41,039 bases of DNA, taken from the sequence record NC_093712.1; one strand, 5' to 3'. Each line of letters opens with the position of its first letter. Positions within the stretch are counted from its first letter, which is position 1. This document shows, in pieces, positions 7,364 through 35,710 of the stretch. Source of the stretch: a phage. A program made the position numbers and the translations under genes. The notes under the pieces were generated by a model, which saw only the letters and a list, made by a program, of their open reading frames with translations, searched no databases and was not told where the DNA came from.

Positions 7364-7390
7364 AAAAGGCCCCGAAAGGGGCCTTAGTTT
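7364..7390. terminator. bidirectional rho-independent terminator
   Basis: AGGCCCC-GAAA-GGGGCCT hairpin flanked by A-run upstream and T-rich downstream; lies between convergent kinase and major tail genes. Confidence 0.75.
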
Positions 7391-8556
7391 TATGCGTAGG
7401 TGATGCGCTGAATAACAATAGACGACTGGTACTGGTTACCAGTAGCCTGGCCTTCGATGGACTGAGTGATTGACTCAGGCCCGCCAATCTCAGGTGTAAC
7501 CGCGGTAAGTTCTGCACGTTTCAAGCTGAAAGACATAGCCCCGTTTACCCCCGCCAGAATAGAGTTAATCTCCACCTGCTGCTCGTTGATAAACTTCTGA
7601 ATCATCGCCATGTCGTACAGCTTACCGGAGATGGAGAAGGTGTTAGCTGCTCGGCTACGCTCCACAAACGCTACGTTAGTGTTGCCGAGTTCGAACTGTG
7701 CGGACGCGCTGTTGTCGTTGGTGATGGTCAGGCTGTCGCAACGCAACGGCGTAGAACCGTCGAACACAGAAACATCGACCGAGGAGAATGGCTCGTTACC
7801 AAACGTAACAGAGGAGAAATCAGAACCAGACGGCTGCGTGGTGAGAATCTCCTGACTGCGACCGATGAACGGGAAGCTGCCAGTTACCATAGCGTTAACA
7901 GCCTGTTCGATGGTAAAACCAGAAACTTCCACGCCTTTGGTTAGTGTGTACGCGTCAGTCCCGCCGCACTGGCCTTTGTACCAGGTGAGAATAGAGAACG
8001 TCTTGCACTGGCTTCCCGTTTCCAGTTTATCCCCTGTCTTAGCGGCGGTAGTTACTGTCTCTGTGGTCAGGGTATGCTGGATACCTGCCCCGGTCACTAC
8101 CAGCGCCTCTACTGCAGTTACGATAAACGGTTTTGCGTTGTCACCGGTTAAGTCGGTAAACGCAATCAGGTCGCCCACTTCAACGCCGTCAGAAATAAAG
8201 CTACCTTCGGCACGGGTAAAGGTCTTGCCTGCAGGCGCGACGGTAATTGATAGCCCGGTCAGAGAACTACCGGATCGCCATGTAGAGCCTAAAGCACCCG
8301 CCAGCCAGTCGTCCTGGCTTTTCGAGCTAAGCTCAATAGCGTATTCTCCGCTAACCTGCTTGTTACCGGTGCGGATTGACGTAGTTTCACGGCTGCCGTC
8401 CAGTTCGTTGGAGGTCAGCGTGTCGCGGGTAATGGCAGGAACGCCACCTGTGTTACGCAATGGCGACCAGACCGGGTTAGTCGGTGTTACGCCCGGGGTA
8501 GTTTCTGCCACATAGAATTGCGCAGTATTCGCGCCCTTAAAAGGAGTTGTAGCCAT
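7390..8556 (-). CDS. major tail protein
   Basis: 388 aa, Thr/Ser/Gly-rich beta-type composition, position between tail terminator-like genes and chaperones; RBS AAGAGG before ATG at 8556 (track start 8562 is GTG). Confidence 0.65.
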   Translation of the reverse strand: MATTPFKGANTAQFYVAETTPGVTPTNPVWSPLRNTGGVPAITRDTLTSNELDGSRETTSIRTGNKQVSGEYAIELSSKSQDDWLAGALGSTWRSGSSLTGLSITVAPAGKTFTRAEGSFISDGVEVGDLIAFTDLTGDNAKPFIVTAVEALVVTGAGIQHTLTTETVTTAAKTGDKLETGSQCKTFSILTWYKGQCGGTDAYTLTKGVEVSGFTIEQAVNAMVTGSFPFIGRSQEILTTQPSGSDFSSVTFGNEPFSSVDVSVFDGSTPLRCDSLTITNDNSASAQFELGNTNVAFVERSRAANTFSISGKLYDMAMIQKFINEQQVEINSILAGVNGAMSFSLKRAELTAVTPEIGGPESITQSIEGQATGNQYQSSIVIQRITYA

Positions 8557-11040: not shown

Positions 11041-11067
11041 AAAAGGGGCCGTAGCCCCTTTGTTTTT
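11041..11067. terminator. bidirectional rho-independent terminator after major capsid gene
   Basis: AAGGGGC-CGTA-GCCCCTT hairpin with TTTGTTTTT on plus and T-run on minus. Confidence 0.7.
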
Positions 11068-11080
11068 ACCACTAACTGTA

Positions 11081-12049
11081 TCACTTGTCCGCGTCGGCGA
11101 TTGCCAGAGTACCGAGGGTGTGTTTGTTCTCGGCAACAGCTTTGTCCCAGTTGGTCGCGGTGAACAGTTCTGCGTCCAGCGGAGATTTACCGCCGTTGGC
11201 GACATCCCAGCTATAGCCTTTCAGTTTCAGGCCGAAGCTGTAATCCGCCTGCCAGGTGGTCTGGATGCGGGTGTTACCGTTGCTGGTATCAATGTTGCTG
11301 ATAATATCAGAAGCATTATCAACGATGATGCCGTTTGCAACTACGGACAGGACCTTAGTCTTGTTCGGAGTACCGGCCTCGTACAGCGCAGGAATGTCAG
11401 AGATTACGTAACGCTTGCCGAGAACATCGACAACCATAACGTTACCGGCAACGAACAGCTGGTTTGCGTTAGTCAGCGCTTTATCTACCAGCGTGTGATA
11501 AGCAGCACCAGTCATGATGTCGGTAATCAGCAGCTGAGACTGGTCGCCGAATTTAGCGTGGCTGTTGTTCAGCACGTTCAGGGACAGACCTACGGTTGTA
11601 GATACGTCGTTAACCAGCGCGGCCTGACCAGATACCGCAGCAACAGCTGCGCCAACAGCGGTGTTGAGCTGGTCCGCTAACAGTGCGTCAGAGAAGCCTT
11701 CGGAAATAGCACGAATCGCGCTTGCCGGGTCTTCGTTAAGCCAAGTCATTTGCGCAGGCTCGAACAGTACCGGTCCGAAGCCGCCAGCGACTTTAACGCC
11801 TACATGCTCGCCCTGAGTCAGCGCGGTAGCTGCCTGAGACTCGATAGCGGCGTAACGGTCAACGCGGCGTTTAGCGGAGGCAATCTGGTTAAAGAAAGAC
11901 TCACGGGAGAAGTCACCGCGCCATGAAGCGGTAGACAGTACAATTGCACCACCGGAGGCTGCGTTAAACTGGTCAGTTTTCTGGCCAAGCAGTTCGATAG
12001 TGGTACCGACGATGTCGTCGTTATAAACCTTCATATCTGACAGAGACAT
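11081..12049 (-). CDS. major capsid protein
   Basis: 322 aa, preceded by scaffold gene and followed by strong terminator; RBS GAGGA. Confidence 0.75.
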   Translation of the reverse strand: MSLSDMKVYNDDIVGTTIELLGQKTDQFNAASGGAIVLSTASWRGDFSRESFFNQIASAKRRVDRYAAIESQAATALTQGEHVGVKVAGGFGPVLFEPAQMTWLNEDPASAIRAISEGFSDALLADQLNTAVGAAVAAVSGQAALVNDVSTTVGLSLNVLNNSHAKFGDQSQLLITDIMTGAAYHTLVDKALTNANQLFVAGNVMVVDVLGKRYVISDIPALYEAGTPNKTKVLSVVANGIIVDNASDIISNIDTSNGNTRIQTTWQADYSFGLKLKGYSWDVANGGKSPLDAELFTATNWDKAVAENKHTLGTLAIADADK

Positions 12050-12055
12050 ATTCTG

Positions 12056-12682
12056 TTATCCTCGTTTGCCGTATTTGGCGTTAAGTTTTTGCTGGATTAC
12101 GTCCGCACCACCGGCCCCGCCAGTAGAATTTTTGTTACCGGAAGCCCCGCCGCCGGTTGCCGCATCTGCTTTAATCAGATGCGAAAATGCTTTGTGCTCA
12201 CGCAGATACTTTTTAAATTGCTCTGCGTCGGTGGTGATGACATTACCGTCTGCACCTGTGAACTTGGTCACAACGTCATCGCCGTCAAATTCGGTCTTGA
12301 CCATCATAGCGATAATATCCGCTGCGCTCTCATCAATCAACATTCCAGACAACTGGCTGATAACTGATTTACGTTCCGCGCCGAGGATACGCTCAGCCAT
12401 TTTGCTAATCTTACCGTCTTTCTCGGCGAGTACTGGCTCATACTGACTGCGCAACGTTTTCTCGAATGCCTCAAGTTCGCCGTTCTGTTTTGCGCGTTCC
12501 TGTTCGGCTTTCAGCTTCGCATCTGCGGCTTCTTTCGCGGCAGCGGCGGCAGCTTTCTTTTCAGACAAGAGTTTCTCGTTGTTAGCTTTAAGACCGGATA
12601 CCAGCGCGTCAACTTCTTCTTTGGTAAACGTGGTCTTAGTCTCTTGTTGTTCGATAGTTTCGTCTTTCACTTCTTCGCTCAT
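12056..12682 (-). CDS. capsid scaffolding protein
   Basis: Highly charged Ala/Lys/Glu-rich helical protein immediately upstream of capsid gene; ATG at 12682 with GGGGA RBS (track start 12733 lacks RBS). Confidence 0.65.
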   Translation of the reverse strand: MSEEVKDETIEQQETKTTFTKEEVDALVSGLKANNEKLLSEKKAAAAAAKEAADAKLKAEQERAKQNGELEAFEKTLRSQYEPVLAEKDGKISKMAERILGAERKSVISQLSGMLIDESAADIIAMMVKTEFDGDDVVTKFTGADGNVITTDAEQFKKYLREHKAFSHLIKADAATGGGASGNKNSTGGAGGADVIQQKLNAKYGKRG

Positions 12683-12761
12683 CAGTATGTCCCCTGGACG
12701 TTGGAATCCGGGCCACCCGGATTTACATGTCAAGAATAAATTATTCCAACATACAAGGCAA

Positions 12762-13025
12762 CTATTCCAGAATATTCCTCACGTAATCCTGCAACATGAA
12801 CACTTTAAGTCTCAGTTGCCGTACACATTCTGCGTTCTGGACGTCAATAGCTAAATCCTCGTCCGCGTCGTTACTTGGCAGTGCCAGTTTGCACGGCGGC
12901 TGCATCATCGTCGTATCCGGGGATGGAATTGGCGTTTGCGACGGCGCGGGACTTGAGCTGCACGCGCTCAGGGTCAAAAGTGCACACGCTGCGGCCAGGC
13001 GTTTTAATGTACTTAACGACTTCAC
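12762..13025 (-). CDS. o-spanin (Rz1-like outer-membrane lipoprotein)
   Basis: 87 aa, signal peptide with lipobox LTLSAC, Pro-rich mature part; starts inside and in a different frame from the i-spanin gene and extends past it (overlapped architecture). Confidence 0.7.
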   Translation of the reverse strand: MKSLSTLKRLAAACALLTLSACSSSPAPSQTPIPSPDTTMMQPPCKLALPSNDADEDLAIDVQNAECVRQLRLKVFMLQDYVRNILE

Positions 13026-13257
13026 GGGTGATCACCTCTGATTTCGTCTTGCCTTCGTTATCGGCGGCTGCGGCCTTTGATTCATCCTGCTGCTGCCGTT
13101 GTGTTTTCTTCGCCAGCTCAGCCTGTGCTTTCTGCTGTTGCCGCGAAACGAGATTAGCGCGACCTTCGTTCCAGCCGCTGCGATACTGATAAATGCCGTG
13201 TGCGTAAGCCAGGATGATGAAACATGTTCCCGCTACGACAGTTGCTTTAAGATTCAT
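12871..13257 (-). CDS. i-spanin (Rz-like inner-membrane spanin)
   Basis: 128 aa, N-terminal TM segment ATVVAGTCFIILAYAHGIY, then coiled-coil QQQKAQAELAKK; embeds the lipoprotein ORF. Confidence 0.7.
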   Translation of the reverse strand: MNLKATVVAGTCFIILAYAHGIYQYRSGWNEGRANLVSRQQQKAQAELAKKTQRQQQDESKAAAADNEGKTKSEVITREVVKYIKTPGRSVCTFDPERVQLKSRAVANANSIPGYDDDAAAVQTGTAK

Positions 13258-13362
13258 GTTTCTCCTTTCTCGATAAGTAAAGCCCCGCCATAAAGCGGGG
13301 CGCTAGTCCTCATCATTTAAACATAGAAACGGCGTAATCTCAGTAAACCAGTTACTTTTTAC

Positions 13363-13522
13363 ACAAGCAATAGAGTATGGCCCTTCCGAACGCGTCAGCG
13401 TAACTACACTCAGGACTTACGTCCCGCTCCGTTACCTGCCCGCGCCGCGGTCGCTTGTTCATACTTCACAAGCTCAGGTGGAGCTTAGCACATTTTCAGT
13501 GAAAAGTCAACTATTCGAATAG
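13363..13522 (-). promoter_or_regulatory. conserved promoter plus structured leader element, copy 1 (TTGACT-17-TGnTAAGCT promoter at 13510..13482, then conserved hairpins)
   Basis: ~145 nt shared with 24338-24482 (blocks TATGGCCCTTCCGAAYGCGTCAGCG, CGGTCGCTTGTTCATACTTCACAAGCTCAGG, GAGCTTA, AAAAGTCAA); no conserved ORF; followed by hairpin GCGCCCCGC/GCGGGGC (13281-13305) before spanin RBS. Confidence 0.5.
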
Positions 13523-13572
13523 TTTATTCCAACATTTACAATTATGTGGAATAACTGGAATAATCACAGGCG

Positions 13573-13606
13573 CTAAAAAGCCCCTTTCGGGGCTTAAGTT
13601 TATTCT
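13573..13606. terminator. rho-independent terminator (bidirectional)
   Basis: AAGCCCC-TTTC-GGGGCTT hairpin with flanking T/A runs; just past stop of gene 13600..14061. Confidence 0.7.
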
Positions 13607-15145: not shown

Positions 15146-15163
15146 AAAGCCCCTTTCGGGGCT
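15146..15163 (-). terminator. hairpin terminator between portal and head morphogenesis genes
   Basis: AAAGCCCC-TTTC-GGGGCT followed on minus strand by TTTCTTAT. Confidence 0.5.
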
Positions 15164-20265: not shown

Positions 20266-20855
20266 TCATTTAACCGCCCTACCGATAGCCTCAGCCTCTT
20301 GCCACGGTTTACCGTCGAACAGCGCCAGACGCCCGGCTGTACGGCGACGCAGGCCAAGTAGTGGTTTGCCGTTCTGGTTGATGAACAGCGCCAGCTTGGC
20401 CCGCAGCGTCGCAGTATCACCGGAACGCAGTGCCTTACCCGTGCCGGTAGTAGCTGCAATCACACCGGCACCAGCGTTATACACCAGGTCGCACATTGCA
20501 CGAACCCCTTCATGAAGGTGGGGGACGGAACGCAGTGCCTACCCGTGCCGGTAGTAGCTGCAATCACACCGGCACCAGCGTTATACACCAGGTCGCACAC
20601 TGCATCGAACTGCGCCTGTGTCAATGAATGGTGTGCTGCCGCATCGACCGCGGCCACGGCCTTAGCCATATCGCGATTCAGTAACAGGAGGCCTTGTCCT
20701 GGGGTGATGGTCTTGCCTGGAGTCACGTCCGGCCCGTAGTGCCCGTACCCAATAGTCAGGTACTTCTCGTTCGGCGTAGCGCGATACGCAGTTCCGCGGA
20801 ATCCCTCGAACGCGGCACAGAAATGCAATCCATTATCTGAAATATTTCGAGACAT
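20266..20855 (-). pseudogene. endolysin (GH24 phage lysozyme) with reading frame interrupted by 105-bp imperfect tandem duplication
   Basis: N-part (20460..20855) has lysozyme motif FEGFRGTAYRATPNEKYLTIGYGHYG; C-part (20266..20496) continues in another frame; both fragments contain CDLVYNAGAGVIAATTGTG encoded by the duplicated DNA. Confidence 0.7.
20421..20599. repeat. imperfect tandem direct repeat (2 copies, period 105 bp) with palindrome CCTTCATGAAGG at junction
   Basis: 20421-20495 and 20526-20599 are identical except a 1-nt indel; similarity extends ~10 nt further; 12-bp perfect palindrome at 20507-20518 between copies. Confidence 0.8.
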
Positions 20856-21481: not shown

Positions 21482-21775
21482 TTATTTATGGCGCCAGATG
21501 TATTGTCGTCTCTGTGGTTTCGTCGGAATATCATCGTATCCAAGCGATTTCCAGTAATTAAATAGCCGGTTAGCGATTGCTGCGCGTTCCTGTGTTTTAA
21601 ACTCGCCGAGATTCACGGCCTTCCCGTTCTGGAATCCGCAGGCGCGTACCGCTTTGCGTCTGGCCTGAATCTCGGGGTACAGTGCATTACGGCGGCGCTT
21701 GTGTATACGCGTATTCGCTCTTGGCGACAGCGGCGCAAGGCCGCTTCGTTTCAGGATGTCAGTTGCTAACGACAT
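21482..21775 (-). CDS. hypothetical basic protein (possible nucleic-acid-binding regulator)
   Basis: 97 aa, Arg/Lys-rich, upstream of lysis cassette. Confidence 0.45.
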   Translation of the reverse strand: MSLATDILKRSGLAPLSPRANTRIHKRRRNALYPEIQARRKAVRACGFQNGKAVNLGEFKTQERAAIANRLFNYWKSLGYDDIPTKPQRRQYIWRHK

Positions 21776-21978
21776 TATTTCTCCTGTTTACCAAGTCGCT
21801 TAGGTGAGCAGATAGCGCGTACCTCCGAATCGTTGGGCTTGTCGCCCTGAAACAGGAAGTGCGCGTTCTCTGCGGCGCGTGCCGCTGACTGGCACGCCTC
21901 CATCGAGTAAAACGTTTCTGATGCCGCCAGATGCATCTGACCCGTGGACAGCACCCAGATAAATAAGATGCTGGTCAT
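21775..21978 (-). CDS. small protein with N-terminal hydrophobic segment
   Basis: ATG at 21978 overlaps upstream stop (TGATG); hydrophobic MTSILFIWVLSTG; a competing overlapping ORF 21800..22033 was judged less likely. Confidence 0.4.
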   Translation of the reverse strand: MTSILFIWVLSTGQMHLAASETFYSMEACQSAARAAENAHFLFQGDKPNDSEVRAICSPKRLGKQEK

Positions 21979-22523
21979 CAGAAGTATTCCCCGCACGTTT
22001 TACATACTTTCGTACCGAACGGCGCGGAGCCATCTGTTATTACATAATAGAAACTGTGTTTGCACTCCTGTGTACAGGCTGTAGCCCCATACTCAAGTCC
22101 GTCCCACTCACGCTTGCCGCATTCGCAGCAAAACCGGCTACCGGGCACGTTGTCCTTGCAGCCTTCGGCAATAAACAATCCTGGAGCGATAATCCAATTG
22201 TGGTCATATTCCTGCGTATCTTCTTTTCGGCAACCAGATTGCTCCGAACCGTACGCACCTTTGCGGATAAGTTTGTATGCCTCCACGTCACCAGTAGCCT
22301 TGACCAATGCCAGATGCAACTCCTTAACTTGCCCTGTCAGGTGCGATATGTGCTCAGATTTCTTAATGTTGTCTTCCCGCAACTCCTTAATCTGCGCCGA
22401 CGCATCACGTAACTGATTCTTAAGTGACTGCACCTCATGCGCCAGGTCTTCGCTCCGGCTGTTATTTACCTGCTGCCGTAGCTGGTCGATAAGGTACTCG
22501 AATATTTCGTTTTTAGTGTTCAT
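21978..22523 (-). CDS. coiled-coil protein with C-terminal Cys-rich (zinc-binding-like) domain
   Basis: 181 aa; N-terminal heptad-like region, C-terminal CxxC...CxxC clusters (FCCECGK, VCKTCGEYF). Confidence 0.55.
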   Translation of the reverse strand: MNTKNEIFEYLIDQLRQQVNNSRSEDLAHEVQSLKNQLRDASAQIKELREDNIKKSEHISHLTGQVKELHLALVKATGDVEAYKLIRKGAYGSEQSGCRKEDTQEYDHNWIIAPGLFIAEGCKDNVPGSRFCCECGKREWDGLEYGATACTQECKHSFYYVITDGSAPFGTKVCKTCGEYF

Positions 22524-24125: not shown

Positions 24126-24152
24126 AACCCTCACTCCTCTGTCTCGTTTCGA

Positions 24153-24188
24153 TAAGTGAATAGTATCCTATTATGTTGGGGTGTGCAA
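24153..24188 (-). promoter_or_regulatory. early-left promoter (TTGCAC-17-TACTAT) with operator AATAG-N4-CTATT (24159-24172)
   Basis: Conserved motif; -35 at 24188..24183, -10 at 24165..24160; RBS and ATG follow ~30 nt downstream on minus strand. Confidence 0.5.
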
Positions 24189-24337
24189 GAGATTAGTTAC
24201 GTTGCCGTTGTGATTCTTTTGTTTAATGGGGTAGCGAGCGAAACGAACGTGGTGCCGGAGGCACCAAGAGTGAGTGAGTGAGCTTGCGGTTCTGACCTAC
24301 GGCAAATCAATAACTTAGATATTTAGGCGGGGAATTA

Positions 24338-24482
24338 TAATAGACTATGGCCCTTCCGAATGCGTCAGCGAGGCTCACTCCACACGTCGAGACGTGCTCG
24401 TTTCGCCTGCCGCGCACCGCGGTCGCTTGTTCATACTTCACAAGCTCAGGACGAGCTTACCATATTTCTCAGTAAAAGTCAA
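24338..24482 (-). promoter_or_regulatory. conserved promoter plus structured leader element, copy 2 (TTGACT-17-TGnTAAGCT at 24482..24454)
   Basis: Near-identical blocks to 13363-13522; hairpin CACGTC-GA-GACGTG (24373-24386) replaces GGAC-TTAC-GTCC of copy 1 at the same relative position; perfect TATAAT on plus strand at 24336-24341 is an alternative reading. Confidence 0.5.
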
Positions 24483-24589
24483 TACCAGTAGCATCTTTTG
24501 CATCTTAGTAACTTTGTGTGGTGTTTTGGTTGCTTTTACATTCCCGCTATCCTATACTCGGTTCCACCAAACAAACAGGAGATATGAAA

Positions 24590-24772
24590 ATGCCGCATTA
24601 CATGACACAGAATGAAGTAGCTGAACGTATCGGGGTGACACGTCAGACAATTAATAACTGGCTGCGCAGTGGTAAATTCCCGGATTGCTGTATTAAGGTT
24701 ATGGGTCGCCGTTTACCGGGAACATTCGACCGTAATAAAGTTGAAGCATGGATTAAGGAGAACGTGAAATGA
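24590..24772 (+). CDS. small HTH DNA-binding protein (AlpA/excisionase-like HTH)
   Basis: ATG at 24590 with AGGAG RBS (track ORF starts upstream at 24518); MTQNEVAERIGVTRQTINNWLRSGKFP is a typical HTH_17-type motif. Confidence 0.6.
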   Translation: MPHYMTQNEVAERIGVTRQTINNWLRSGKFPDCCIKVMGRRLPGTFDRNKVEAWIKENVK

Positions 24773-27689: not shown

Positions 27690-27762
27690 TTGATATGTGA
27701 ATAGTACCATATTAATTATTTTAGAAAAGCCCATTGACAAGTGAATAGTTCGCTATTATAGT
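27690..27762 (+). promoter_or_regulatory. tandem early-right promoters (TTGATA-17-TAATTA and TTGACA-17-TATAGT), each with operator AATAG-N4-(C/A)TATT in the spacer; overlaps divergent -10 TATAAT for the XRE gene
   Basis: Operators at 27700-27713 and 27744-27757; minus-strand TATAAT at 27760..27755. Confidence 0.55.
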
Positions 27763-27793
27763 TAGCCCATACCAAACGAGAGGAGAGAAACAA

Positions 27794-30301: not shown

Positions 30302-30330
30302 GTTGACACCTGAATAGTAAGCTATTATAG
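30302..30330 (+). promoter_or_regulatory. promoter TTGACA-17-TATAGT with operator AATAG-N4-CTATT (30312-30325)
   Basis: Perfect -35, operator in spacer; upstream of SSB-like gene. Confidence 0.55.
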
Positions 30331-30386
30331 TTCTAATCACTGGCCGGGCAGCTTCCCCGGAGTAAACTTAAAAGCGAGAAATCACG

Positions 30387-33609: not shown

Positions 33610-33890
33610 CACCGGAAGGCAAAATACAGAAATACGCAAAAGAGCGATTCGAGGCCATCGGCGGCCTCGTTCGTAAGCTCTCCTACGAGGGGCGCTCCGG
33701 CGCTCCCGACCTGCTGGTAATTCTCCCCGGCGGCATAGTCTGGTTCGTCGAGGTGAAGAAAGACGAAAACACGAAGCCGGACCCGCACCAGATACGTGAG
33801 CACGAGCGGATGCGTAAACGTGGTGCGAATGTTTTTGTCGTTGGTTCGTTTAAACAGGTTGACGACCTAATAGCGAGCTATTATAGTTAA
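33606..33890 (+). CDS. VRR-NUC domain nuclease
   Basis: PD-(D/E)XK-type signature GAPDLLVIL...VWFVEVKK; ATG at 33606 is ATGA-coupled (track start 33591 is TTG). Confidence 0.7.
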   Translation: MTPEGKIQKYAKERFEAIGGLVRKLSYEGRSGAPDLLVILPGGIVWFVEVKKDENTKPDPHQIREHERMRKRGANVFVVGSFKQVDDLIASYYS

Positions 33891-35676: not shown

Positions 35677-35680
35677 AGAA

Positions 35681-35710
35681 AAGGCCCCGTTTGGGGCCTT
35701 AGTTTTATTT
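35681..35710. terminator. bidirectional rho-independent terminator between convergent replication operon and tailspike gene
   Basis: AAGGCCCC-GTTT-GGGGCCTT with T-runs on both strands. Confidence 0.75.

What the first reader, a model, noticed from the sequence alone, without database searches (positions are those of the whole stretch)
13363..13522. Duplicated promoter-plus-structured-leader element, copy 1, upstream of spanin and capsid genes
A ~145-nt noncoding sequence occurs twice (here and at 24338-24482) with long identical blocks, yet one internal hairpin differs in sequence while keeping pairing (GGAC-TTAC-GTCC at 13413-13424 versus CACGTC-GA-GACGTG at 24373-24386), which suggests selection on RNA structure. 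On the minus strand each copy begins with a conserved extended -10 promoter (TTGACT-17-TGnTAAGCT) and is followed by a GC hairpin before the next gene; here GCGCCCCGC/GCGGGGC plus a T-rich run sits 25 nt before the i-spanin RBS. No conserved peptide is encoded. Both copies sit ahead of operons containing lysis or morphogenesis genes. Layout resembles lambdoid PR'-qut-tR' units or HK022 put-type cis-acting antitermination RNAs, but could be a small RNA.
Basis: partly seen in the sequence, partly recalled or inferred. Interest (0 to 1): 0.8.

Follow-up and report, generated by a model that had tools for sequence, protein, structure and literature searches.

The report
Conserved structured leader RNA, Guernseyvirinae operons
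Two long operons of this E. coli phage, one carrying lysis and DNA-packaging genes and the other capsid and tail genes, each begin with the same ~112-nt folded RNA leader, an undescribed RNA family found only in this phage subfamily that most likely lets RNA polymerase read through the stop signals that follow it, although that function has not been tested.

Summary
The window is a Kagunavirus (Guernseyvirinae). A ~112-nt element occurs exactly twice, both on the minus strand (13476-13365 and 24448-24335), each just downstream of a TTGACT-17-TGnTAAGCT promoter.

It folds into a 5'-terminal hairpin plus a long irregular hairpin. The base of that hairpin is near-invariant: CCG, a bulged C, two tandem G.U pairs, then N:N'. 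A conserved AAGGGCC..UCUAUUG tail follows.

Across 39 distinct homologues, 95% of pair cells are standard pairs and 16 of 29 pairs show changes on both sides. One pair appears as C:G, U:A and A:U. The G.U pairs place the structure on the minus-strand RNA.

The leader is 96-100% identical between E. coli and Salmonella phages whose flanking genes are 60-90% identical. Every variant is followed 50-95 nt later by a GC hairpin of unrelated sequence. Strong terminator hairpins lie inside the operons. The copy-2 leader continues into 200 nt of C-rich untranslated RNA.

There is no match to Rfam, tRNA models, boxA, HK022 put or E. coli genomes.

The best reading (about 0.4) is a cis-acting antitermination leader that works like put but is not a put homologue. 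The main rivals are a protein-dependent nut-like site, an mRNA stabiliser and a short trans-acting RNA. It is a new RNA family whose function is inferred, not shown.

The parts
13511..13563 (-). Upstream repeat array of the copy-1 promoter. TTATTCC occurs twice (13563-13557 and 13554-13548), followed by GGAATA-n3-TATTC (13530-13517) and GAATAG (13516-13511). It is a putative regulator-binding region and is absent from copy 2.
   Evidence: Sequence. The same array is present in Jerseyvirus and Cornellvirus. That a regulator binds here is inferred.
13482..13510 (-). Predicted sigma-70 promoter of copy 1: -35 TTGACT (13510-13505), 17-nt spacer, extended -10 TGcTAAGCT (13490-13482). The predicted start is near 13475/13474.
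   Evidence: invariant in about 30 Kagunavirus contigs. The Jerseyvirus equivalent is TAGACT-17-TGnTACGCT. It was not listed by the consensus scan because the -10 core matches only 3 of 6 positions.
13365..13476 (-). Leader RNA element, copy 1. It comprises H1 (13473-13453), the long irregular hairpin H2 (13450-13386) with its apical hairpin (13426-13411), and the conserved single-stranded tail AAGGGCC (13385-13379) and UCUAUUG (13374-13368).
   Evidence: Covariance-model hit of 138.9 bits; covariation; minimum-free-energy fold; conservation peak of 96-100%.
13282..13301 (-). GC-rich hairpin with a UUUACUUAUC tail, 64 nt after the element and 14 nt before the spanin ribosome-binding site. It is terminator-like.
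   Evidence: Compensatory changes in homologues (GCCCUGC/GCAGGGC in L004, GCCCGAC/GUCGGGC in L036).
13255..13267 (-). Shine-Dalgarno AAGGAG and ATG of the first gene of the copy-1 operon (Rz-like spanin, 12871-13257). Scaffold (12056-12733) and major capsid (11081-12049) genes follow.
24454..24482 (-). Predicted sigma-70 promoter of copy 2: -35 TTGACT (24482-24477), 17-nt spacer, TGgTAAGCT (24462-24454). The predicted start is near 24447/24446.
24335..24448 (-). Leader RNA element, copy 2. It has the same H1, the same H2 base and tail, and a different apical region.
   Evidence: Covariance-model hit of 100.9 bits; the minimum-free-energy fold gives H1 plus H2 directly, z = -2.15; covariation.
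24135..24334 (-). Remainder of the copy-2 5' untranslated region: 200 nt that are C-rich and G-poor, resembling a Rho-loading (rut) site. It includes the GC hairpin GGUGCC-UCC-GGCACC (24266-24250).
   Evidence: Composition is C 27-38% and G 9-22% in 78-nt windows. Hairpin. Other Kagunaviruses carry non-homologous hairpins at the same place.
24149..24178 (+). Divergent promoter of the repeated D1 motif family (see the full report), lying inside the copy-2 5' untranslated region. Its transcripts would run antisense through the copy-2 element toward the helix-turn-helix gene at 24584-24772.
   Evidence: D1 family. The site is conserved in all copy-2 variants. That it acts as a promoter is inferred.
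11042..11061 (-). Strong intrinsic-terminator hairpin (AAAGGGGC-UAC-GCCCCUUU followed by UUUUAC) inside the copy-1 operon, directly after the major capsid gene and upstream of nine further head and tail genes.
15148..15163 (-). Terminator-like hairpin (AGCCCC-GAAA-GGGGCU followed by UUCUUAUAGU) inside the copy-2 operon, after the portal gene.
13578..13595 (-). [quoted passage not shown]
   Evidence: (D4).
7366..7385 (-). [quoted passage not shown]
   Evidence: (D4).

Best explanation
The element is a cis-acting structured leader RNA. It is transcribed as the first ~112 nt of two long minus-strand operons: copy 2 covers small genes, lysis genes, terminase, portal and head genes, and copy 1 covers spanin, scaffold, capsid, connector and tail tube genes.

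Proposed mechanism. As it leaves RNA polymerase, the 5'-terminal hairpin H1 and the long hairpin H2 fold. The H2 base (3 G-C pairs, a bulged C, two tandem G.U pairs) and the AAGGGCC tail then stay associated with the polymerase that made them. This could happen with the RNA alone, as for HK022 put, or with host elongation factors. The association would make that elongation complex resistant to pausing and termination.

Consequence. Polymerases that started at the cognate promoter would pass three kinds of barrier: the GC hairpin 50-95 nt downstream, the C-rich Rho-prone untranslated stretch of copy 2, and the strong terminators inside the operons (after the portal and capsid genes). Stray read-in transcription would be stopped.

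Shown: the duplication, the fold and its covariation, the strand, the extreme conservation, the layout of promoter, element, hairpin and genes, and the internal terminator-like hairpins. Inferred: the transcription start, that the hairpins terminate, and any contact with polymerase.
For: (1) Position. Both copies start 5-7 nt after a conserved -35/extended -10 promoter and head operons of about 6 and 10.5 kb.

(2) Real RNA structure on the minus strand. 95.1% of 1087 pair cells are standard pairs, against 83.2% in shuffles and 30-39% when partners are slid. 16 of 29 pairs change on both sides (109 cells, 0/500 shuffles). Pair 45:116 occurs as CG 20, UA 15 and AU 3. The tandem G.U pairs are near-invariant. 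The result also holds on a plain MAFFT alignment.

(3) The core is retained when the apical 45 nt are missing (phage SLMP1) or replaced (Jerseyvirus type). This is what is expected of a site read by a conserved partner.

(4) The non-coding leader is 96-100% identical between this E. coli phage and Salmonella Jerseyviruses S102 and ER1, while flanking genes are 60-90% identical.

(5) Every variant is followed by a GC hairpin whose sequence is not homologous between variants, and two of these hairpins show compensatory changes.

(6) Strong terminator hairpins lie inside the operons, after the capsid gene (11061-11042) and after the portal gene (15163-15148).

(7) After the copy-2 element come 200 untranslated nt with C/G = 1.9. 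This resembles a Rho-loading site, and put suppresses both Rho-dependent and intrinsic termination (PMC9378689).

(8) No Q-like or N-like protein is annotated in an HHpred-annotated sister genome or found among the ten window proteins tested, two of which were also compared with solved structures.

(9) The parallels with putL and putR are two copies at two operons, a start at the very 5' end of the transcript, and two stem-loops with bulges and wobble pairs.
Against: There is no experiment, and even the transcription start is predicted.

The element is not alignable to put.

The downstream hairpins have short or interrupted U tracts (UUUACUUAU, UUAGCGUAU, ACGUUCGUUUCG). They may be weak terminators, pause sites or stability elements.

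Thermodynamic z-scores of the element alone are unremarkable: -1.2 and -2.2, with -0.4 to -3.8 in relatives.

Jerseyviruses carry the element at only one of the two operons and Cornellvirus has only a diverged leader. It is therefore not indispensable for the lysis/packaging operon.

A constitutive antiterminator followed by a terminator has no obvious regulatory value beyond insulation.
Confidence: 0.4

Rival explanations
1. A nut-like or attenuator site that needs a protein. A phage-encoded RNA-binding protein (or a host one) recognises the conserved H2 base and tail. Only then does polymerase pass the downstream hairpin, so the unit acts as a timing switch between early and late expression and is not a constitutive licence.
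For: The layout is the same as for the best explanation. A terminator placed after the element makes more regulatory sense if read-through is conditional. The copy-1 promoter also carries a conserved upstream repeat array that suggests regulated late expression. Many small proteins of unknown function are encoded early in the copy-2 operon.
Against: No boxA lies in or next to the element within 2 mismatches. No N-like, Q-like, BglG-like or other antiterminator family was detected among tested or annotated proteins. The invariant core is identical in phages of two host genera whose proteins have diverged. The variable apical region, where specificity loops such as boxB sit, is dispensable in SLMP1.
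Confidence: 0.2
2. A 5' untranslated-region stabiliser or expression enhancer. The 5'-terminal hairpin H1 blocks 5'-end-dependent RNase E/RppH attack. The Shine-Dalgarno-like GGAAGGG tail may bind 30S subunits, as the STAB-SD element does in Bacillus (from my own knowledge). The result would be long-lived, abundant mRNA for highly expressed structural genes.
For: H1 sits within 1-2 nt of the predicted 5' end in all variants and keeps its pairing while changing sequence completely: GCUUGU/ACAAGC versus UACGCU/AGCGUA. The tail contains AAGG. Copy 1 precedes the scaffold and capsid genes, which need the highest expression.
Against: A simple hairpin would be enough for stabilisation. This idea does not explain the near-invariant bulged-C and tandem-G.U helix, the 100% sequence conservation, or the positionally conserved downstream GC hairpin with non-homologous sequences. 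Copy 2 precedes small early-type genes and not abundant structural proteins.
Confidence: 0.2
3. The functional product is a short trans-acting RNA. Most transcripts would end at the downstream hairpin, giving an RNA of about 195-200 nt (compare lambda 6S RNA from PR'-tR'). That RNA would act in trans, for example as a decoy for a host protein or as an antisense partner of the early plus-strand transcript that crosses copy 2.
For: In both copies the distance from predicted start to hairpin is similar, about 175-195 nt. The whole 222-nt copy-1 leader is conserved and folds better than shuffles, z = -3.5. A plus-strand promoter of the D1 motif family inside the copy-2 leader would make a complementary RNA.
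Against: The hairpins are weak terminators by sequence. The operons behind them have no other recognisable promoter, so read-through must be substantial. No complementarity target was identified, and there is no match in E. coli genomes. Copy 1 has no antisense partner.
Confidence: 0.1
4. No RNA-level function. The repeat would be a recombination relic or a DNA-level site, such as a protein-binding or packaging signal, and the apparent structure would be incidental.
For: The two copies could have arisen by duplication of a promoter module. Kagunavirus genomes are mosaic.
Against: Compensatory double changes occur in 16 of 29 pairs. The near-invariant G.U pairs would be A.C mismatches on the other strand. 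The apical hairpin has been replaced by unrelated sequences that still pair. The leader is a conservation peak relative to the coding flanks.
Confidence: 0.03

Closest known systems
HK022 putL/putR (polymerase-utilisation RNAs; King et al. 1996 from my own knowledge; cryo-EM structure in PMC9378689)
   Same: A cis-acting RNA at the start of phage operons. Two copies per genome at two operons. putL begins at +1-3 of the transcript, as this element is predicted to. Both have two stem-loops with bulges and wobble or non-canonical pairs. No dedicated antiterminator protein is recognisable in either phage. Terminators lie downstream in both.
   Different: There is no sequence or covariance-model similarity: the model finds no hit in the HK022 genome at E<=10. 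This element is 112 nt long (minimal natural form about 60 nt) against about 70 nt for put. No equivalent of the stem I triple helix is evident. The host phage is a virulent siphovirus of the Guernseyvirinae and not a temperate lambdoid. Function is untested.
Lambdoid late unit PR'-qut-6S RNA-tR' with Q protein
   Same: A promoter, a ~200-nt untranslated leader, a hairpin, and then lysis and morphogenesis genes. The distance from start to hairpin is about 175-195 nt, against 194 nt for lambda 6S RNA (from my own knowledge).
   Different: No Q gene was found. Q acts through a DNA site and a sigma-dependent pause, not through a folded RNA. The -10-like repeat after the promoter (TGAGCT or TACGCT) lacks the critical A in Kagunavirus and is absent in Cornellvirus.
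Lambda nut and rrn leader antitermination sites (boxA with a boxB hairpin, plus Nus factors)
   Same: A hairpin followed by a conserved single-stranded U-rich segment (UCUAUUG) in an operon leader.
   Different: The boxA consensus GCUCUUUAA is not matched within 2 mismatches in either leader. No N-like protein was found.
EAR RNA of Bacillus eps operons and other RNA or LoaP-type processive antitermination leaders
   Same: A structured leader element at the head of a very long operon, proposed to confer terminator read-through.
   Different: No Rfam family, EAR included, matches at the gathering threshold or at E<=10. The host clade and the fold are different.

Membership tests
HK022 put RNA | Alignable sequence and secondary structure shared with putL/putR | tested here: not met
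   putL was recovered from the HK022 genome using the primers given in PMC9378689. Model R1 gives no hit in the whole HK022 genome at E<=10. No similarity is visible by eye beyond GC-rich runs.
HK022 put RNA | Two stem-loops transcribed immediately downstream of an operon promoter (putL starts at +1-3) | tested here: met
   H1 and H2 begin 1-3 nt after the predicted start in both copies. The start itself is predicted, not mapped.
HK022 put RNA | Binds the zinc-binding domain of the RNA polymerase beta' subunit and suppresses pausing and termination without protein factors | not testable with these tools
   This needs in vitro transcription, rpoC zinc-binding-domain mutants or structural work.
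HK022 put RNA | Terminators downstream that must be read through to express the operon | tested here: inconclusive
   Terminator-like hairpins lie at 13301-13282, 24266-24250, 11061-11042 and 15163-15148. The leader-proximal ones have weak U tracts, and termination was not measured.
Lambdoid PR'-qut-tR' / Q antitermination | A Q-family antiterminator gene | tested here: not met
   None appears in the HHpred-based annotation of sister phage fKuEco01. No Q or antitermination family was found among the 10 window proteins scanned with Pfam and PHROGs. Two candidate proteins have no relative among solved structures. Not every ORF was scanned.
Lambdoid PR'-qut-tR' / Q antitermination | A -10-like element close to the promoter that induces a sigma-70-dependent pause | tested here: inconclusive
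   A second hexamer follows the -10: TGAGCT in Kagunavirus and TACGCT in Jerseyvirus. The Kagunavirus form lacks the A at position 2. The hexamer doubles as the 5' arm of H1 and is absent in Cornellvirus.
nut / rrn boxA-dependent antitermination | boxA sequence (GCUCUUUAA-like) next to a hairpin | tested here: not met
   No match within 2 mismatches inside 13258-13476 or 24135-24448 on the minus strand. Window-wide matches equal chance (113 found against 117 expected).
Any Rfam 15 family (riboswitches, ribozymes, small RNAs, EAR and others) | Covariance-model score at or above the gathering threshold | tested here: not met
   There were 0 hits in the whole window at the gathering threshold. 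Only sub-threshold noise was found at E<=10 around copy 1.
tRNA / tmRNA-like element | ARAGORN detection | tested here: not met
   0 genes in the window.
Intrinsic (Rho-independent) terminator, for the downstream hairpins | A GC-rich stem-loop followed directly by a U tract | tested here: inconclusive
   The stems are strong and are maintained by compensatory or wholesale replacement. The U tracts are short or interrupted, except in phage ST20 (UUUAGUU) and at the internal site 11061-11042 (UUUUUAC).

The most novel reading that the evidence does not exclude
The element is a second, structurally unrelated class of RNA-only processive antiterminator. It would be a nascent leader RNA that binds E. 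coli or Salmonella RNA polymerase by itself and licenses only promoter-cognate transcription of late operons. It would have evolved independently of put, in virulent siphoviruses, and would be present in more than 400 sequenced Guernseyvirinae genomes.
Probability: 0.22. Interest if true: 0.85.

Novelty: new variant of a known kind. Interest (0 to 1): 0.66.

Why it matters
RNA elements that reprogram bacterial RNA polymerase on their own are very rare. The known examples are put and EAR, and put has been a key model for how the RNA exit channel and the beta' zinc-binding domain control pausing.

A second, unrelated fold doing the same job on the same enzyme would allow a direct comparison of solutions and would be a compact, portable anti-termination part for synthetic operons.

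Even if the function turns out to be different (a protein-dependent switch, a stabiliser or a decoy RNA), this is an unannotated, covariation-supported RNA family. It sits at the control point of capsid, tail and lysis gene expression in Kagunavirus and Jerseyvirus phages, which are widely isolated for E. coli K1 and Salmonella therapy and biocontrol. Current annotations either leave it blank or call spurious 'hypothetical proteins' across it.

Tried and rejected
- Rfam at gathering and E-value thresholds found nothing. Rfam has no put model, so this is uninformative about put.
- ARAGORN found no tRNA or tmRNA.
- boxA search found no match in the leaders.
- Model R1 against the HK022 genome found no hit.
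- blastn against 5,426 complete E. coli genomes found no match, so the element is neither host-derived nor in E. coli prophages.
- Distant relatives were sought by core-pattern scans of IMG/VR, metagenomes and the GTDB species-representative genome collection. Only Guernseyvirinae sequences were true hits, and all other matches were chance or coding. The metagenome scan was saturated by chance matches in GC-rich DNA and was largely wasted.
- A pseudoknot between the H1 loop (AGUAUG) and the tail (CAUACU) was rejected. It pairs perfectly in copy 1, but the tail varies (CAUAG, CAUAA, CAAAG, CGUAG) without compensation, and Jerseyvirus H1 has a 3-nt loop.
- A closing helix making a three-way junction (copy-2 minimum-free-energy fold) was rejected. 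It uses bases upstream of the predicted start and is not conserved in copy 1.
- A riboswitch-style antiterminator pairing between the element and the downstream hairpin was rejected. Only 5-bp complementarities exist, they are not shared by the two copies, and about 65 nt separate the parts.
- A leader peptide was rejected because of 1-nt indels among near-identical copies.
- An RNase III site is unlikely to be the general role, since SLMP1 retains only an 8-bp H2.
- The Cornellvirus leader and the Jerseyvirus leader at the copy-2 position share short motif echoes (CAUUCGGGAG, CGGAAGGGUC; CGCGUUAAGGCUUAC). They fail the model, and I do not count them as members.

Full report
**What the window is.** blastn of both copies against GenBank phages finds 180 records at E<=1e-5. 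A shorter query at a looser threshold finds 202. All are Kagunavirus or Jerseyvirus siphoviruses of E. coli and Salmonella (subfamily Guernseyvirinae). The HHpred-annotated sister genome fKuEco01 gives the gene map. One strand carries replication genes. The other, the minus strand of the window, carries two long operons.
- The copy-2 operon runs from about 24134 down to 13600. It holds some 25 small genes, holins, endolysin, terminase, portal, head morphogenesis and decoration genes, and ends at a terminator (13595-13578).
- The copy-1 operon runs from 13257 down to about 7390. It holds the Rz-like spanin, scaffold, major capsid, connector and tail tube genes, and ends at a bidirectional terminator (7385-7366).
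- PHROGs and Pfam confirm the spanin, scaffold, capsid, Hoc-like decoration protein and lysozyme.

**Check of the observation.** The repeat is real and far beyond chance.
- There are identical blocks of 70 and 32 nt.
- A covariance model (R1) finds exactly two hits in 41 kb: 13476-13365 (138.9 bits) and 24448-24335 (100.9 bits), both on the minus strand.
- Each hit lies 5-7 nt after TTGACT-17-TGnTAAGCT. The -10 core matches the consensus at only 3 of 6 positions, so the generic scanner missed it. The -35, the spacing and the TG motif are invariant in about 30 Kagunavirus contigs. Jerseyviruses have TAGACT-17-TGnTACGCT.
- The promoter and the start site (about 13475 and 24447) remain predictions.

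**Anatomy.** The RNA has four parts.
- H1 is a hairpin at the extreme 5' end: GCUUGU-9 nt-ACAAGC in Kagunavirus and UACGCU-UUC-AGCGUA in Jerseyvirus.
- H2 is a long irregular hairpin. Its base is nearly invariant: CCG, a bulged C, two G.U pairs, an N:N' pair, then G-C and C-G.
- The apical half of H2 varies in sequence. It has a different sequence in Jerseyvirus and is absent in Salmonella phage SLMP1, whose H2 is an 8-bp hairpin.
- A conserved single-stranded tail, AAGG(G/C)CC...UCUAUUG, follows.

**Covariation.**
- On a model-guided alignment of 46 hits (39 distinct), 95.1% of 1087 pair cells are standard pairs. The figures are 83.2% in column shuffles and 30-39% when partners are slid.
- 16 of 29 pairs show changes on both sides (109 cells; 0 of 500 shuffles reach this).
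- Pair 45:116 occurs as C:G (20), U:A (15) and A:U (3).
- H1 is fully swapped between genera, and the apical hairpin has five or more sequence versions.
- That alignment leans toward the model. I therefore repeated the count on the plain MAFFT alignment of 22 Kagunavirus sequences. It gave 93.9% paired against 87.9% in shuffles, 32 double-change cells (0/500), and a covariation score of 0.173 against 0.074.
- The near-invariant G.U pairs and other wobble pairs would be A.C mismatches on the complementary strand. The structure therefore belongs to the minus-strand RNA.
- Folding energies of the element alone are not exceptional, with z from -0.4 to -3.8. The evidence is evolutionary and not thermodynamic. 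The whole 222-nt copy-1 leader has z = -3.5.
- One-nucleotide indels among near-identical copies (119, 120 and 121 nt) exclude a conserved peptide.

**Distribution.**
- The Kagunavirus-type element matched 202 GenBank phage records, 180 of them over at least 80% of the query.
- The Jerseyvirus-type element matched 397 records, 268 over at least 80%.
- Some Jerseyviruses (S102, the ER series) carry the Kagunavirus type.
- The copy upstream of the spanin, scaffold and capsid genes is present in every Kagunavirus and Jerseyvirus genome examined. The second copy is present in many Kagunaviruses. Jerseyvirus MET_P1 has a different structured leader at that position.
- Cornellvirus SP-031 has a diverged leader at the spanin site that fails the model.
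- No copy was found outside Guernseyvirinae. This covers IMG/VR, a metagenome scan (saturated by chance hits), 100,044 species-representative genomes (only two mis-binned or contaminant contigs) and 5,426 E. coli genomes.

**Conservation.** I compared the window with Salmonella Jerseyviruses S102 and ER1. The leader (13500-13250) is 94-100% identical in 50-nt windows, and 96-100% against S102. The flanking decoration-protein and spanin genes are 58-92% identical, and blastn segments over the wider region are 71-86% identical. A non-coding stretch that is better conserved than its coding neighbours across two host genera points to a very conserved partner.

**Context that bears on mechanism.**
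- Every variant of the element is followed 50-95 nt later by a GC-rich hairpin. The hairpin sequences are not homologous between variants: GCCCCGC/GCGGGGC, GGUGCC/GGCACC, GGGUGGGC/GCCCACCC, GGGCAGGC/GCCUGCCC, GCCCGGC/GCCGGGC. Two of them show compensatory substitutions. Structure at that position is therefore selected. Their U tracts are short, so termination is plausible but not demonstrated.
- Strong terminator hairpins lie inside the operons, directly after the major capsid gene (11061-11042, with a UUUUUAC tail) and after the portal gene (15163-15148). Many essential genes lie beyond them.
- After the copy-2 element the transcript runs for 200 nt with no supported gene. This stretch has C 27-38% and G 9-22% (C/G = 1.9), the composition of a Rho-loading site.
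- No Q-like, N-like or other antiterminator protein is annotated or detected. There is no boxA.

**Most likely mechanism.** I propose a cis-acting leader RNA that renders the polymerase that made it resistant to pausing and termination, in the manner of HK022 put. put is a two-stem-loop RNA of about 70 nt, present at two operons. putL starts at +1-3, binds the beta' zinc-binding domain without protein factors, and suppresses both intrinsic and Rho-dependent termination (PMC9378689). The fit is by position, architecture, duplication, downstream terminators and absence of a protein factor. I put it at 0.4. Only the anatomy is shown. Polymerase binding and read-through are inferred.

**Membership.** The element is not a put homologue. 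putL recovered from the HK022 genome shows no similarity, and R1 has no hit in HK022. 'Works like put' and 'is a put' are therefore kept apart.

**Rivals.**
- A protein-dependent nut-like or attenuator switch (0.2). It explains why a hairpin follows the element. It lacks boxA, a candidate protein, and any need for the variable apex.
- A 5'-end stabiliser or expression enhancer (0.2). The 5'-terminal hairpin and the AAGG tail fit. The invariant bulge and G.U helix and the downstream hairpin are unexplained.
- A ~195-nt trans-acting RNA ending at the hairpin (0.1).
- An incidental or DNA-level repeat (0.03), which the covariation contradicts.

**Novelty.** No Rfam family matches. No paper found in the searched library mentions the element. 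The genome papers I found describe only the AATAG/CTATT promoter-like motif, referred to here as the D1 family (PMC9825357). A Kagunavirus time-course RNA-seq study does not address leaders (PMC12645636). Annotations leave the region blank or place spurious hypothetical ORFs on it. It is a new RNA family. If the proposed role is right, it is a new structural solution within a known kind of system, processive antitermination by a leader RNA.

Noticed in passing
window 24149-24178, 27690-27719, 27734-27763, 30303-30332, 33859-33888 (+) and 4782-4754 (-): A second repeated promoter-like family, which I call D1: TTGACA-agtGAATAGTtcgCTATTATAGTT, with the palindrome AATAG-n4-CTATT spanning the spacer and -10. 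There are five copies on the replication strand and a sixth on the minus strand directly upstream of the tail-chaperone and tape-measure operon. PMC9825357 reports the motif (tgAATAGTa-ccTATTat-T) as 'phage RNA polymerase promoters', although these phages encode no RNA polymerase. It looks more like sigma-70 promoters with a built-in operator.
   Followed up: partly
window 13563-13511 (minus strand): The copy-1 promoter, but not the copy-2 promoter, is preceded by TTATTCC twice, then GGAATA-n3-TATTC, then GAATAG abutting the -35. ACTATTCGAATAGT forms a perfect 14-bp palindrome. The TTATTCC and GGAATA-n3-TATTC array is conserved in Kagunavirus, Jerseyvirus and Cornellvirus. This suggests an activator-dependent late promoter for the capsid operon.
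   Followed up: partly
window 24135-24590: Face-to-face promoters. The plus-strand D1-type promoter at 24149-24178 lies inside the 5' untranslated region of the copy-2 operon. Its transcript toward the helix-turn-helix gene (24584-24772) would be fully antisense to the copy-2 leader and would run across the copy-2 promoter. This gives scope for transcriptional interference or antisense control between the early transcript and the lysis/packaging operon.
   Followed up: no
window 20436-20643: A 104-bp tandem duplication (65-nt cores at 20436-20500 and 20540-20604, 98% identical) lies inside the endolysin gene. It splits the gene into ORFs 20460-20855 (131 aa, Phage_lysozyme residues 15-102) and 20266-20496 (76 aa), which share the peptide CDLVYNAGAGVIAATTGTG. 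It is either an assembly artefact or a disrupted endolysin.
   Followed up: partly
L134 12460-12760 (Salmonella phage MET_P1_001_43) and IMG/VR loci L324-L342: At the position of copy 2, Jerseyviruses have a different conserved leader. It runs TTGACA-17-TGTAAGTT, then a 5' hairpin GUAAC-UUCAA-GUUAC, then a long hairpin CUUAGCG...CGCGUUAAG with a covarying apex (GGGUCCGC/GCGGAUAC versus GGUUCCGC/GCGGAAAC), a tail GCUUAC, and later a GC hairpin. Its architecture echoes the Kagunavirus element, but model R1 does not detect it.
   Followed up: partly
L323 25440-25720 (Cornellvirus FSL SP-031): The leader upstream of the spanin gene is diverged. It contains the echoes CAUUCGGGAG and CGGAAGGGUC. It also contains the hairpin GGUGCCUCCGGCAC, which is identical in sequence to the hairpin downstream of copy 2 in the window (24266-24250).
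   Followed up: no
L035 6905-6971 (Salmonella phage SLMP1): This is a natural minimal form of the element. The apical ~45 nt of H2 are missing, leaving H1, an 8-bp H2 base (CCGCGGUGC-GGAC-GCAUUCGG) and the tail. It comes from a single genome, so an assembly error cannot be excluded. If real, it defines the functional core at about 60 nt.
   Followed up: partly
window 7364-7393, 13575-13604, 35679-35708: The three operon-end terminators share one sequence family, AAAAGGCCCC-nnnn-GGGGCCTTAGTTTTAT (D4). They are palindromic and hence potentially bidirectional.
   Followed up: no
window 21978-22523 (-) and 21482-21775 (-): Two conserved proteins of unknown function sit just upstream of the holins. 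One is 181 aa, with an N-terminal coiled coil and a C-terminal Cys-rich region (CCECG...CTQEC...CKTCG). The other is 97 aa and Arg/Lys-rich (HKRRRN...ARRKAVR). Neither matches Pfam or solved structures. They are candidates for the missing late regulator.
   Followed up: partly
L312 (MAG labelled Bacillota) and L313 (Taishania pollutisoli scaffold, 738 bp): Genome records labelled as bacteria carry the Guernseyvirinae leader, at 99.5 and 40.2 bits. The most likely cause is phage contigs mis-binned into, or contaminating, those assemblies.
   Followed up: no
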